A stretch of DNA of 27,806 nucleotides from Ferrithrix thermotolerans DSM 19514 (GTDB taxonomy: Bacteria; Actinomycetota; Acidimicrobiia; Acidimicrobiales; Ilumatobacteraceae). Where the stretch lies: positions 1-27,806 of the forward strand of contig CAMAQQ010000001.1 of assembly GCA_945860575.1 (NCBI GenBank), written 5' to 3'. Shown here in pieces: positions 22,269-26,635 of this stretch. The notes below the pieces were generated by a model, which searched no databases, had not been told where the DNA came from, and worked only from the letters and a program-made list of their open reading frames with translations. The first letter of the stretch is position 1, and every line of letters begins with the position of its first letter. Made by a program: the position numbers and the translations under genes.

Positions 22269-22379
22269 TTATCTAACCGACTGTGAATCATTGATCTTTG
22301 AAAAAACCGAACGAACGAGCCACGCAAAGTCTTCAAACAAAGTATGCGAAATACGACCCCGCGAAATCGGCAATTTCAT
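22269..22379 (-). CDS. Possible 36-aa small ORF MKLPISRGRISHTLFEDFAWLVRSVFSKINDSQSVR
   Basis: Hand translation. ATGA overlap with the stop of 22376-23002; fills the gap to the convergent menJ-like stop. Confidence 0.3.
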   Translation of the reverse strand: MKLPISRGRISHTLFEDFAWLVRSVFSKINDSQSVR

Positions 22380-23002
22380 AGAACGCAGACTACTTCGTTG
22401 ACTTCATCGGTAATCAGATTCATCTTTGAAACGCTTTGGTTTGGCGAATAAATATTTATAAATTCGCGCAGACTAATTCGGCTCGCGCCGCTGTCATCGC
22501 GGCAAGTCTTGATCGTTGGCGATGCAAGTCGAACAATCCAACCGTTTGCCAAAACTCCTCGGTCACCGTCATCAAGCATGTCAACAAGACTTGGCAACTC
22601 AAGAAACCGAGTCGGCGTTGGGCCGTTTGCATTGACGATCGCAAACCACATCACCGAATCACCAAACATGTTCGCCAACATCACACACGACGACTGTTTC
22701 GTCACATCAGCGCAGTCAAGTTCGCCTGGTGTGCCAGACGCTATAAATATGTTCCGGCCGTCATCCAGACTTGCGGTTGCGTCACCCACCGTGCGACCAT
22801 TTTCAATTGATAATCCTTCAGCCGTAGAAAATGTTGAAACAACCGCGACAAGTTCGATATTTTTCTCAACTGAATCTTGCATCACTGCGGCATCTGATCC
22901 GCGACCAAAGCAGTCATTACACGAGATGGCAAACAAGAAAAAACCTGCGACTGTGAGTAACCCGAACGCAAGCCAAAGTCGCGAATTCAGTAACTGACGC
23001 AC
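22376..23002 (-). CDS. Hypothetical exported or membrane-anchored Cys-containing protein
   Basis: 208 aa, GTG start, N-terminal hydrophobic segment, six Cys; downstream of rex on the same strand. Confidence 0.78.
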   Translation of the reverse strand: MRQLLNSRLWLAFGLLTVAGFFLFAISCNDCFGRGSDAAVMQDSVEKNIELVAVVSTFSTAEGLSIENGRTVGDATASLDDGRNIFIASGTPGELDCADVTKQSSCVMLANMFGDSVMWFAIVNANGPTPTRFLELPSLVDMLDDGDRGVLANGWIVRLASPTIKTCRDDSGASRISLREFINIYSPNQSVSKMNLITDEVNEVVCVL

Positions 23003-23040: not shown

Positions 23041-23733
23041 TTAGCGAGCACCAGCGGTATTGAGTTGCGGTGCATTTTCGGATTTACCACCTGTTTCAAA
23101 TCTCATCTGCTCGAAGTAACTCAGGATCTGCAATTCAACCCCGAGATCTACATTGCGCACTGAAACACTGCTCGGCGTAGACAACACAACCGGAGCAAAG
23201 TTGAGAATAGAAGTGATGCCTGCGTCTAGAAGTGAGTCGGCTGCGGCCTGCGACGCGGCGGAAGAAGTCGTGATCACACCGATACTTATCTTCTCGTCTC
23301 TAACAATGTTTTTAAGATCGTTCACATCACCGACAGTCAGCGAACTTGTAGTTCGTCCAATTTTTTTTGGATCGTTGTCTACGATTGCAACTACCGGAAA
23401 GCCACGCGATAAAAAACCATCGAACTTCGCGAGTGCGCATCCCAAATTTCCGGCGCCGACAACCACTACATTCCATTCACGCATCAAACCAAGTTCTCGT
23501 TTAATTTGATGAGTCAGATATGTAACTTCGTATCCAACGCCTCGAGTGCCGTAACTTCCGAGGTACGAAAGATCTTTTCGCACCTTGGCTGCGTTGACTC
23601 CTGCGAGGGCGGCAAGTTCATCACTCGAAAATCGAAGAACATTTGTTGCCGCGAGGTTGTTAAGAATCTGCAAATAGATCGGCAAACGAGCAATTGCTGC
23701 GTCTGGGATTTTGCGTCGTTGAAGTTGCGTCAT
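23041..23733 (-). CDS. rex: Redox-sensing transcriptional repressor Rex
   Basis: IPDAAIARLPIYL, KVRKDLSYLGSYGTRGVGYEV, VVGAGNLG, ILNFAP. Confidence 0.97.
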   Translation of the reverse strand: MTQLQRRKIPDAAIARLPIYLQILNNLAATNVLRFSSDELAALAGVNAAKVRKDLSYLGSYGTRGVGYEVTYLTHQIKRELGLMREWNVVVVGAGNLGCALAKFDGFLSRGFPVVAIVDNDPKKIGRTTSSLTVGDVNDLKNIVRDEKISIGVITTSSAASQAAADSLLDAGITSILNFAPVVLSTPSSVSVRNVDLGVELQILSYFEQMRFETGGKSENAPQLNTAGAR

Positions 23734-23833: not shown

Positions 23834-24613
23834 GTGCTAATTGCAGTCTTTACGGCCTCAGCCAATCAAATTAATGCAACGCTTGCGGGCGCAGCGACGC
23901 TGATTGCCTGCGCATTTGCGTTGCTCACCTTTGATCGATGGCAAATTCGTGGTCAGTCGCACGACTTGGCGTGGACAATCGCAATGAGTCTTTTTGCCGT
24001 GGGTTCGCTGGCATTGTGGTGGGCCGAGACAACTGGCTGGACACTATTTATATTCAAAATATTTTTCGTTTCGGGGGCAGTGCTAAATGTTGCATGGCTG
24101 GCACTAGGGACGATTTATTTGTTGACCAGCAAAACAACGGGCGACCGTGTTCGTAAATATCTGACAAGTCTGAGTACATTCTCGATTGGGGTCGTCTTGA
24201 TTGCGCCCGCGAAACGAGAGATAGTCGACGGCGAGTTTCCGTCGGCGCGGCAATTATTTGGTGTTACCCCACGAGTTCTTGCCGCAGTTGGCTCTGGTGT
24301 GCCCGCACTGATAATAATTTTTGGTGCACTGTGGTCGATCTTCAGGGTGATCCAAAAATCATCACCGACGATTTCGCAAAAAAATGTGCGCACCGTTAAG
24401 TCACCGAAACGGTTGGCGCTCGGAAATGTTCTTGTCGCAACGGGAACACTTGTGCTTTCAGCGAGTGGATCTTTTGCCGGTCGCCTCGGCAAAGATCGGG
24501 CGTTTGCCGTCACCTTATTAATTGGCTTATGTATTTTATTTTCAGGATTTTTGGTCGCCAGTAACTCGTCTCGTATAAATTCGAAAGATAACTCAGTTGC
24601 TCGCGATGGCTGA
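23834..24613 (+). CDS. Hypothetical polytopic membrane protein (about 7 TM), divergent from rex
   Basis: 259 aa with seven hydrophobic segments; no catalytic motif recognised. Confidence 0.85.
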   Translation: MLIAVFTASANQINATLAGAATLIACAFALLTFDRWQIRGQSHDLAWTIAMSLFAVGSLALWWAETTGWTLFIFKIFFVSGAVLNVAWLALGTIYLLTSKTTGDRVRKYLTSLSTFSIGVVLIAPAKREIVDGEFPSARQLFGVTPRVLAAVGSGVPALIIIFGALWSIFRVIQKSSPTISQKNVRTVKSPKRLALGNVLVATGTLVLSASGSFAGRLGKDRAFAVTLLIGLCILFSGFLVASNSSRINSKDNSVARDG

Positions 24614-24713: not shown

Positions 24714-25613
24714 TTAACGAGTCGGACTTATTTTTACTGATGTAGTAACCGAGGTTGGGTCTTGGCGGTGCGAATCAGTTGGGGCCGAAAGAACGATCAA
24801 ATCCCCTTGCCCGATCTGAAGTTCGGTTGCTGCTGATCCACGATCTACGCACAACGAAAGCATCCCATAAGAGTCAATTACTAGTCCGATGCCACTACCA
24901 ATTTGGTCATAACTCCGAACAATTTTCAATGATCGCACGACAGGTTCACGAGATGCACTCGCGCCACTCAATAGAGAACCGATTTCAACGCGCACAACCG
25001 CGCCAAAATCAGTCACTTCGTCCGGTCCAATATTGAGTTGACAGTTGCCGAAGCGATCAACCCAGGTGACTTCGCCGTGCAACGATCCATTTTCTTCTCG
25101 TGGCAAAGGCACCACGCCAGGAAGCAACAATGCAGGATCGATCAACTCTCCGAGTTCACTCAGATCGACGCCGTTGCAAAGATGCGCGGCAACTGGTCCA
25201 AAAATATCTCGCCCAGCAAAAGTTTCGCCTGGTGCGACGAGATGATAATCAGTATTGGTCAGGCAAACTGCTCGTCCGGCACCACCGGCAAGTGCGATAG
25301 CCATCGCCAACAAACCGTTGTCTGGGCCAACAAAAACTCCTTTGCCATCTGCAACTTCAACTGCGATTGCCCGGCGAGTTGAGCCAACTCCTGGATCAAC
25401 AACTGCGAGCACAACACCGCTTGCGACATATGACACACATCGTGCAAGGCTCAGCGAACCGGCACGAACATCAAACGGCTCAATTTCGTGTGTTAAGTCA
25501 ACCACGCGACAACTCGGGGCGATTTCATAAATCACACTTTTGACGACGCCAACAAACTCATCGCGTGTTCCGTAGTCGGATAGGAACGAGATCGTCGAAT
25601 ATTTTTTTGTCAT
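24714..25613 (-). CDS. SAM hydrolase / SAM-dependent halogenase family protein (DUF62), 299 aa from ATG 25613
   Basis: ISFLSDYGTRDEFVGVVK, VVDLTHEIEPFDV, VVDPGVGSTRR, FVGPDNGLL, TFAGRDIF, WVDRFGNCQLNI. Confidence 0.92.
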   Translation of the reverse strand: MTKKYSTISFLSDYGTRDEFVGVVKSVIYEIAPSCRVVDLTHEIEPFDVRAGSLSLARCVSYVASGVVLAVVDPGVGSTRRAIAVEVADGKGVFVGPDNGLLAMAIALAGGAGRAVCLTNTDYHLVAPGETFAGRDIFGPVAAHLCNGVDLSELGELIDPALLLPGVVPLPREENGSLHGEVTWVDRFGNCQLNIGPDEVTDFGAVVRVEIGSLLSGASASREPVVRSLKIVRSYDQIGSGIGLVIDSYGMLSLCVDRGSAATELQIGQGDLIVLSAPTDSHRQDPTSVTTSVKISPTR

Positions 25614-25630
25614 CGGCGTCTCACGATACT

Positions 25631-25674
25631 GAGAAACGTAAGAGCCGGTGCCAACCCCCCGACGGCACCGGCTC
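25631..25674 (-). terminator. Perfect 11-bp hairpin with weak U tail; possible intrinsic terminator or attenuator
   Basis: GAGCCGGUGCC-(11-nt loop)-GGCACCGGCUC followed by UUACGUUUCUC, ending 28 nt before the DUF62 ATG. Confidence 0.55.
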
Positions 25675-25746
25675 AAACGGCGCAACTCTTGCGAGCGCGA
25701 CTCCCAGTTGGGGGGTTACCCCGCCCGGTGATCTTGCGACATTTCT
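25632..25746 (-). ncRNA. Candidate structured cis-regulatory RNA or sRNA, family not identified
   Basis: GC-rich island in an AT-rich spacer with three GNRA-capped hairpins on the minus strand and two mutually exclusive pairings (see findings). Confidence 0.5.
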
Positions 25747-25822
25747 ATTCTCACTTTAGACACGATTAACAGGTATCAAACAAATTTTGATAGAAATAAT
25801 CAACATTTAGGTACAGTCATAT

Positions 25823-26635
25823 CTATAGGCCAAGCTCTTTGCTTCGCGCGGTTGCTGCGTGTACCGCTGCTGAGATAATTTCTGCGAATTGCTTATTCTC
25901 AAGCGCGGCAATGCCTGCGGCCGTTGTACCATTCGGAGAAGTAACATTTTGTCGCAATTTTGCTGGACTCACATCACTTTGTGCCAGCAACGCTGATGAT
26001 CCGACCAAGAGTTGCCGAACTAGGTCATTGGCAACTTCGGCCGACAACCCTTGTTGCACGCCGGCATCAATTAATGCCTCGGCTAACAAGAAGATATACG
26101 CTGGGCCACTTCCAGATAAGCCGGTCACTGCATCAAGCAGATTTTCTTCAACTTCGACAACTTTGCCGACACTGAGAAGAATTTTTCTCGCCCACGAAAT
26201 CTGATCACTTGAACAGTTAGCACCAGCCGCCATCGCCGACGCACCCTGACCAATTAGCGCAGGAGTATTCGGCATGGCGCGCACAACCGAAATTGAATTT
26301 TGACATGCAATTTCAATTGATGCAATCGTTACTCCGGCGGCAATCGACAGCAACTGCTCAACGCCAAAATTTTTAAATGTTGAACAAATTTCAGAAACAT
26401 CATTAGGTTTCACTGCGATTATGACCGAATCACATTTCAACATTTGTTCTGAGATTTGTGTCTGCGGAAAATCTTTACGCAAAATTGCTCGCCGCTCGTC
26501 ATTGCTCTCAACAATCGCCAGTTCACTGGGCTTCAAAAAATTATTGGAGACCAACCCACGGGATAATGCAGCCCCCATATTGCCCCCGCCAACAATGACC
26601 AACGACGGGTTGCTCACGACAAGATCACCCTGCAC
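25823..26635 (-). CDS. proC: Pyrroline-5-carboxylate reductase
   Basis: IVGGGNMG, IIAVKP, LSIAAG, VRAMPNTPALIG, TGLSGSGPAY, VTSPNGTT. Confidence 0.97.
   Translation of the reverse strand: MQGDLVVSNPSLVIVGGGNMGAALSRGLVSNNFLKPSELAIVESNDERRAILRKDFPQTQISEQMLKCDSVIIAVKPNDVSEICSTFKNFGVEQLLSIAAGVTIASIEIACQNSISVVRAMPNTPALIGQGASAMAAGANCSSDQISWARKILLSVGKVVEVEENLLDAVTGLSGSGPAYIFLLAEALIDAGVQQGLSAEVANDLVRQLLVGSSALLAQSDVSPAKLRQNVTSPNGTTAAGIAALENKQFAEIISAAVHAATARSKELGL

What the first reader, a model, noticed from the sequence alone, without database searches (positions are those of the whole stretch)
25632..25746. Candidate two-state structured RNA leader upstream of the SAM-utilising gene
Seen on the minus strand: hairpins GUC-GCAA-GAU, GGG-GUAA-CCC and CUC-GCAA-GAG, all with GNRA loops on this strand only; a perfect 11-bp terminator-like stem (25642-25674) whose loop GUCGGGGGGUU is 10/11 complementary to upstream AACCCCCCAAC (25707-25717); and 5'/3' complementarity (AGAAAUGU..AAGA..CCGG with CCGG..UCUU-ACGUUUCU) that would form a long rod and destroy the terminator. 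Inference: antiterminator/terminator switch, pseudoknot or independent sRNA. I could not match it to SAM-I, -II, -IV, SAM/SAH or SAH riboswitch consensus, so it may be a new motif, plausibly sensing SAM or a related metabolite.
Basis: partly seen in the sequence, partly recalled or inferred. Interest (0 to 1): 0.72.

Follow-up and report, generated by a model that had tools for sequence, protein, structure and literature searches.

The report
Small RNA that replaced a regulator
This is probably not a SAM-sensing switch but an undescribed stand-alone small RNA gene, found in nearly every genome of a widespread actinobacterial family, that seems to be the surviving tail of a lost transcription-factor gene, with relatives that still show the ancestral arrangement.

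Summary
The structure is real; the riboswitch reading is not supported. 25746-25631(-) is a ~115-nt structured RNA gene, absent from Rfam, single-copy, between proC and a DUF62 gene in about 197 of 200 genomes (61/61 genera) of the family (Ilumatobacteraceae). It has its own conserved promoter and ends in a covarying 12-bp hairpin whose CGGGGGG loop is invariant. DUF62 has a separate -10 and no Shine-Dalgarno (50/58 genera), and the RNA stays put when DUF62 moves away. The C6:G6 'antiterminator' exists in only 3 of 61 genera and lies 6 kcal/mol above the ground state. In other Acidimicrobiales this spot holds an excisionase-type HTH gene (68/108 genomes); in this family it was found in 1/80. 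That genome, and two of a sister family, carry promoter-HTH-stop-hairpin, the latter with the same loop on a rewritten stem: the RNA looks like the HTH mRNA's 3' UTR left free-standing, as proposed for OxyS. Most likely it acts in trans through its G-loop (mirror of 6C RNA); no conserved target was found and expression could not be checked. The scan noted the element once before on another genome, also as a switch.

The parts
25823..26635 (-). proC (pyrroline-5-carboxylate reductase), upstream neighbour
   Evidence: TIGR00112, 265 bits over cut-off; within 400 nt upstream of the hairpin in 69 of 73 informative motif-first metagenome loci
25753..25781 (-). Predicted SigA-type promoter of the RNA: -10 TAAAGT 25758-25753 and -35 region about 25781-25774
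   Evidence: -10 invariant in the 28 full-length same-genus copies; family consensus YGTGAC-W-CTTTTC-W-CA, 15/16 nt, TA-N3-T in 51 of 61 genera with spacer never 14 or 17; this genus has diverged at -35; core also precedes the HTH gene in the intermediates. Not tested experimentally
25631..25746 (-). Free-standing structured RNA gene, about 115 nt here (81-199 nt in the family)
   Evidence: far better conserved than flanks in genus; single copy in own genome; no Rfam match; lengths from predicted starts; no conserved ORF
25731..25740 (-). P2, small 5' hairpin (GGUC-loop-GACC in 17 other genera; absent from minimal forms)
25704..25730 (-). P3 hairpin, with G4/C-tract tip; variable, absent from minimal forms
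   Evidence: compensatory change in two same-genus genomes keeps P3 and breaks the rod
25707..25717 (-). C6 tract complementary to the G6 loop (possible internal lock), only in genera g1, g39, g42
25679..25701 (-). P4 hairpin: conserved CGC/GCG base, variable upper stem, GNRA loop (GCAA, GAAA, GCGA, GAGA in this genus)
   Evidence: 97.7% of cells paired in 57 genera; never broken in 28 same-genus copies
25642..25674 (-). P5 terminal hairpin; 11-nt loop 25663-25653 with invariant C-G6
   Evidence: 12 pairs, 99.6% paired, 9 pairs with two-sided changes, 0/500 shuffles; loop positions 3-9 invariant in 61/61 genera (the search pattern favours this); G-U 32 vs A-C 2 fixes the strand
25631..25641 (-). 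U-rich tail (weak intrinsic terminator); about half of the genera have a GC-rich tail instead
25623..25628 (-). Separate -10 (TATCGT) of the DUF62 gene, 9 nt before its ATG; leaderless-type start
   Evidence: 50/58 genera, SD in 1/58; chance 4%
24714..25613 (-). DUF62 / SAM hydroxide adenosyltransferase-family gene, downstream neighbour, not the regulated unit
   Evidence: PF01887 and PF20257; NCBIfam (R)-SAM hydrolase models below cut-off

Best explanation
The element is an independent small non-coding RNA gene. Step 1 (strongly supported by comparison, not by transcript data): RNA polymerase starts at its own SigA-type promoter near 25746, makes a short RNA of variable 5' hairpins plus conserved P4 and P5, and stops after P5; DUF62 is transcribed separately as a leaderless mRNA. 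Step 2 (supported by living intermediates): P5 first arose in the 3' UTR of an excisionase-type HTH regulator mRNA in the ancestor of this family and a sister family; the HTH reading frame was then deleted in almost all of the family, joining the old promoter to the old 3' UTR. Step 3 (inferred): the business end is the exposed CGGGGGGU loop, which pairs in trans with C-rich single-stranded RNA (C-tracts beside ribosome-binding sites or C-rich hairpin loops), the mirror image of 6C RNA, giving stable chaperone-independent G-C helices and so post-transcriptional control under the signal that once drove the HTH gene. In three streamlined genera an internal C6 tract may act as a kinetic lock on the loop. 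My odds: step 1 about 0.88, step 2 about 0.8, step 3 about 0.55 given step 1.
For: Family-wide, mostly single-copy: 197/200 genomes, 138/139 near-complete ones, control pattern 8 hits. Covariation of P5 and invariance of its loop. Own promoter, unique in each genome. DUF62 has its own -10. RNA independent of either neighbour. HTH ortholog in 68/108 genomes of other families but 1/80 in this family; that genome has promoter-HTH-stop-hairpin. A model built without them finds, among 147 genomes of other families, only two of family f41, where the hit follows the HTH stop and keeps a loop identical to a family variant on a rewritten stem; the other 62 HTH loci lack it. f41 and this family fall in one starred clade, 96/93. 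Extra G6 loops arose in three lineages, as expected if loops are binding units. Precedents: OxyS from a peroxidase mRNA 3' end (10.1101/2021.10.18.464853); 6C acts by G-C pairing through loops without chaperones (PMC6486639).
Against: No conserved target: no enrichment of loop-complementary sites at start regions in this genome; no shared perfect 9-mer site among the sites inspected in five genera; the best site is limited to part of one genus; the dnaK-leader signal is weak and post hoc (p 0.03-0.07). The P5 stem is conserved in sequence within the family beyond what pairing needs, which may point to a protein. The position of the HTH-bearing genome inside the family is unresolved on a two-gene tree, so one or several losses are possible.
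Confidence: 0.55

Rival explanations
1. Independent RNA whose G6 hairpin is bound by a protein (decoy or scaffold, in the manner of CsrB/RsmZ sponges), not a base-pairing regulator.
For: Stem sequence next to the loop and the P4 base are nearly invariant inside the family; repeated gain of extra G6 loops; no conserved RNA target found.
Against: In family f41 the stem is rewritten while only the loop is kept; folding predicts part of the loop is paired, leaving about 5 G exposed, which fits a seed as well as a protein site. No candidate protein identified.
Confidence: 0.2
2. The loop is a Shine-Dalgarno mimic: it titrates a C-rich-loop sRNA (sponge) or the 16S anti-SD tail.
For: Loop pairs 7 bp with the anti-SD, -10.6 kcal/mol versus -11.6 for a canonical SD (16S tail from general knowledge); the ancestral HTH mRNA also has a conserved G-rich leader, so both ends could bind one C-rich RNA.
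Against: No 6C RNA found in five family genomes; no obvious C-loop sRNA among non-coding hairpins of this 74%-complete genome; a real SD mimic would tolerate A for G, yet G6 is invariant.
Confidence: 0.12
3. It is only the terminator or 3'-stabilising hairpin of the upstream operon (mshA-like, ybjN, proC), with a vestigial promoter.
For: Almost always directly after proC; P5 plus U tail looks like a terminator in about half of the genera.
Against: Terminator loops are not normally invariant; promoter box and spacing are strictly kept; promoter and RNA persist where proC is not upstream (4 loci); P4 is conserved.
Confidence: 0.08
4. One reading: SAM-related riboswitch or attenuator in which C6:G6 pairing and the rod prevent the terminator and switch on DUF62.
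For: Usually adjacent to DUF62; in this genus the rod is only 4-11 kcal/mol above the ground state and the C6:G6 helix is the best fold of nascent RNA until the 3' arm appears.
Against: C6 in 3/61 genera; no conserved alternative helix; rod pairs broken in 6, 2 and 23 of 28 same-genus copies while P2, P3, P4 are never broken; DUF62 has its own promoter; element uncoupled from DUF62 in many genomes; it arose downstream of an HTH gene; no aptamer-like conserved junction; no Rfam riboswitch match.
Confidence: 0.04

Closest known systems
OxyS (Enterobacteriaceae) as a route of origin; 10.1101/2021.10.18.464853
   Same: An sRNA that replaced a protein-coding gene in place, derives from that mRNA's 3' end and keeps the old promoter.
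   Different: No sequence relation; here the lost gene is a DNA-binding regulator, the element looks already complete in the 3' UTR of genomes that still carry the gene, and function and expression are untested.
6C RNA (Rfam RF01066; PMC6486639)
   Same: Actinobacterial small RNA built of stable hairpins with a homopolymer run of six in the loop; plausible G-C seed pairing without Hfq.
   Different: Run is G not C on the transcribed strand (G-U 32 vs A-C 2), one conserved loop rather than two or more, different locus, no match to the model.
3' UTR-derived sRNAs such as UhpU (PMC12704781, seen)
   Same: The ancestral form sits in the 3' UTR/terminator of an mRNA.
   Different: In nearly all of this family the host reading frame is gone, so the RNA is a primary free-standing transcript.
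SAM-I/II/IV/V/VI, SAM-SAH and SAH riboswitches
   Same: Structured RNA upstream of a SAM-metabolising gene, ending in a terminator-like hairpin.
   Different: No model match, no conserved aptamer core or switch helix, downstream gene has its own promoter, linkage not obligatory.
Rv0500A / BdtA-type excisionase-family HTH regulators (TIGR01764, PF12728)
   Same: The lost gene is a 63-aa stand-alone HTH_17 protein right after proC; Rv0500A is a DNA-binding repressor (PMC6375644).
   Different: Orthology to Rv0500A rests on my memory of its position next to proC and was not tested by sequence here; it scores below the BldC cut-off.

Membership tests
SAM/SAH riboswitch classes | Match to a curated aptamer covariance model | tested here: not met
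   No hit at gathering score in the window; none of the four hits up to E 10 is a riboswitch
Riboswitch / attenuator in general | Lies in the 5' UTR of, and is consistently linked to, functionally related genes | tested here: not met
   Followed by convergent genes, or by unrelated genes such as a racemase-like or acyl-CoA dehydrogenase-like frame (read from translation), in many genomes; DUF62 has its own -10
Riboswitch / attenuator in general | Conserved mutually exclusive helix that disrupts the terminator | tested here: not met
   0/60 genera with p<=0.05 for loop, 5' arm or tail, 4/60 for 3' arm; median cost of losing P5 12.6 kcal/mol
Riboswitch / attenuator in general | Ligand-dependent structural change | not testable with these tools
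   Needs in-line probing
6C RNA | Two hairpins with C-rich loops on the transcribed strand; RF01066 match | tested here: not met
   Strand fixed by wobble pairs, GNRA loops and promoter; no RF01066 match in five genomes
Ms1 RNA | RF02566 match, long rod with central bubble | tested here: not met
   No match at this locus or over cut-off in five genomes; rod not conserved
Bacterial small SRP RNA | RF00169 match; the one SRP RNA of the genome | tested here: not met
   A proper SRP RNA lies elsewhere in all five genomes tested
Free-standing trans-acting sRNA | Own promoter and own 3' end | tested here: met
   By conservation only; no transcript data
Free-standing trans-acting sRNA | No conserved reading frame | tested here: met
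   35/60 genera have no start codon near the predicted 5' end; frames differ in the rest
Free-standing trans-acting sRNA | Conserved mRNA targets of the seed | tested here: inconclusive
   Candidates only
Free-standing trans-acting sRNA | Expressed as a discrete RNA | not testable with these tools
sRNA born by gene erosion (OxyS route) | Occupies the place and promoter of a lost gene; ancestral relatives carry it in that gene's 3' end | tested here: met
   single origin not rejected (p-AU 0.28), not proven

The most novel reading that the evidence does not exclude
A core-genome regulatory RNA with a G-tract seed loop (a '6G' counterpart of 6C) that took over the promoter, and possibly part of the regulatory role, of a lost Rv0500A/BdtA-type transcription factor across a whole abundant bacterial family, with extant genomes preserving the before (3' UTR of the factor's mRNA) and after states, and with an internal C6 lock gained in streamlined lineages.
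Probability: 0.3. Interest if true: 0.8.

Novelty: new variant of a known kind. Interest (0 to 1): 0.62.

Why it matters
How sRNA genes arise is an open question with few traced cases, and those come from enterobacteria. Here an RNA missing from Rfam is kept in about 98% of a large actinobacterial family, including genome-streamlined members of 1.3-2 Mb, and both the ancestral (3' UTR of a regulator mRNA) and derived (free-standing) states are present in sequenced genomes, so the swap of a protein regulator for an RNA can be tested directly. A G-rich seed would also extend the chaperone-free G-C pairing logic known from 6C RNA. Practically, it stops a false SAM-riboswitch call and gives a 23-nt family marker.

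Tried and rejected
Rfam at gathering and E<=10: nothing relevant. 6C, Ms1 and SRP identities tested and rejected. Plus-strand reading (C6 loop, 6C-like) rejected by wobble asymmetry, GNRA loops and promoter position. Dispersed repeat rejected: single copy; not in viral contigs. Small peptide (an 8-codon frame exists here) rejected as unconserved. A family-wide antiterminator through upstream CACCGG-like or GACC motifs looked tempting by eye but did not beat shuffles. Target searches: perfect 9-mer sites in five genera, none shared among those inspected; start-region enrichment, none; an SD-adjacent C6 loop before a secreted neocarzinostatin-like protein gene, restricted to part of genus g1; dnaK leader, weak. 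Promoter box as a regulon site: further matches near control level, 15 versus 10. Phylum-wide model search found nothing outside the family in 147 genomes (strict filters). Literature searches found no description, which is not proof of absence.

Full report
Observation. The 11-bp hairpin at 25674-25642 dominates the ensemble; the alternative rod is a genuine fold but lies 6.4 kcal/mol higher. Rfam has nothing for it and it is single-copy in its genome.

Setting. The spacer lies between proC and a DUF62 gene in an Acidimicrobiales genome; a protein of the same genus clusters with one named from an Ilumatobacteraceae bacterium, so I use that family name. In same-genus genomes the ~115 nt are almost invariant while the flanks drift, with an invariant TAAAGT 7 nt upstream.

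Distribution. A 23-nt pattern for the terminal hairpin matches 197 of 200 family genomes and all 61 genera, nearly always once, with 8 control hits (at least one two-mismatch hit looks spurious). In other families of the order it gives only background hits, none at proC. It was not found in viral contigs or, with a covariance model, in 147 further genomes across the phylum.

Anatomy. One sequence per genus shows a core of P4 and P5. P5 has 12 pairs, 99.6% paired, nine with two-sided changes; slid registers fall to 30-50%. Loop positions 3-9 (C then six G) never vary, and G-U pairs outnumber A-C 32 to 2, which fixes the strand; part of this invariance is built into the search pattern, but loci found through the DUF62 protein show the same loop. 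The 5' part is modular: minimal RNAs of about 81-90 nt lack P2 and P3, others reach 199 nt. Upstream sits a conserved promoter-like unit in 51 of 61 genera with a spacer of only 15 or 16 nt before TA-N3-T; it is unique in each genome tested. No reading frame is conserved.

Why it is not a DUF62 switch. The C6 tract exists in three genera only. Across 60 genera the upstream part pairs with the loop, the 5' arm or the tail no better than shuffles. Within this genus substitutions break rod pairs but never P2, P3 or P4. DUF62 carries its own TA-N3-T 6-9 nt before the start and no Shine-Dalgarno in 50 of 58 genera, against 4% by chance. Where genes have been inserted, the RNA stays after proC 1.3-7.6 kb from DUF62, often facing a convergent or unrelated gene; in 80 motif-first metagenome loci neither neighbour is obligatory. 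What survives of the two-state idea is local: in three streamlined genera the C6 tract keeps a 7-bp complement to the loop and would form first during transcription, so it could gate the loop.

Origin. In other families the proC-DUF62 gap commonly holds a 63-aa excisionase-type HTH gene, found in 68 of 108 genomes outside the family but in 1 of 80 inside it; the other weak hits are distant HTH domains. That one genome, G090, reads promoter, G-rich leader, HTH, stop, small P4-like hairpin, P5. The covariance model, built without it, retrieves from 147 genomes of other families only two of family f41; there too the hit follows the HTH stop, with a loop identical to one family variant on a rewritten stem. 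The remaining 62 HTH loci have no such hairpin. On a ProC+DUF62 tree f41, f20 and this family form a starred clade and G090 sits in the unresolved base of the family; one origin of the RNA is not rejected. The simplest history is gain of the hairpin in the HTH 3' UTR, then loss of the reading frame, as described for OxyS (10.1101/2021.10.18.464853). That the HTH is an Rv0500A/BdtA ortholog is my recollection, not tested; Rv0500A is a DNA-binding repressor (PMC6375644).

Mechanism. The part kept across both families is the loop, and extra G6 loops appeared in three lineages. By analogy with 6C RNA, which pairs through C-rich loops without chaperones (PMC6486639), I think trans pairing with C-rich RNA is most likely. 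This is inference. Target hunts gave only leads: an SD-adjacent C6 loop in part of this genus and C-tracts in dnaK leaders, 23/30 versus 8/19 outside the family, p 0.03, post hoc and not phylogenetically independent; there is no genome-wide enrichment. Protein decoy and SD mimicry remain open. Expression could not be examined.

Verdict. A real, apparently undescribed, family-defining small RNA; not a member of 6C, Ms1, SRP or any riboswitch class tested. It is a new variant of a known kind (free-standing sRNA born from an mRNA 3' end), notable for the G-tract loop and the preserved intermediates. Interest 0.62.

Noticed in passing
L216:1470-1500, L295, L296 and other HTH loci: The HTH genes of Acidimicrobiales share a strongly conserved G-rich leader (GCGGAGA-GGGGUGAUUCC-like) in about half of 65 loci, longer than an ordinary Shine-Dalgarno; possibly a cis-element or a target of a C-rich sRNA.
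   Followed up: partly
window 25623-25613 and orthologs: DUF62 appears to be a leaderless or near-leaderless gene with its own -10 across the family; the annotated-looking upstream TTG at 25685 is probably not the start.
   Followed up: yes
L488 (G000:C45:3818-3950): dnaK promoter with a HAIR-like inverted repeat (HspR box, from general knowledge) and a leader hairpin with a C5 loop, seen also in genus g42.
   Followed up: partly
G000:C176:2856-2885 (L275): Conserved small hairpin with a C6 loop overlapping the ribosome-binding site of a secreted neocarzinostatin-like protein gene next to an aromatic amino-acid lyase gene; best loop-complementary start region in the genome, but limited to part of the genus.
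   Followed up: partly
L062, L064, L066 (genus g48); L212 (g35); L295 (f41): A second G6-loop hairpin upstream of P5, in place of P4.
   Followed up: partly
L135, L136, L155, L156, L208 (genus g53): An additional TTGTGAA-type palindrome-like box upstream of the RNA promoter; the family promoter box itself resembles CRP/Rex sites, and rex lies 2 kb downstream in the window (23041-23733).
   Followed up: no
L045 (family f20), L038, L047-L049, L054: Several families have proC abutting DUF62 with neither HTH gene nor RNA at the locus, i.e. independent losses without RNA replacement.
   Followed up: partly
window 23834-24613 (+) and 22376-23002 (-): Two open frames with no Pfam or NCBIfam match near rex; not examined.
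   Followed up: no
G000:C151:293: The loop 11-mer also occurs in the coding strand of an RNase E/G-like frame (read from translation), where it encodes a conserved peptide stretch; taken as coincidence.
   Followed up: no
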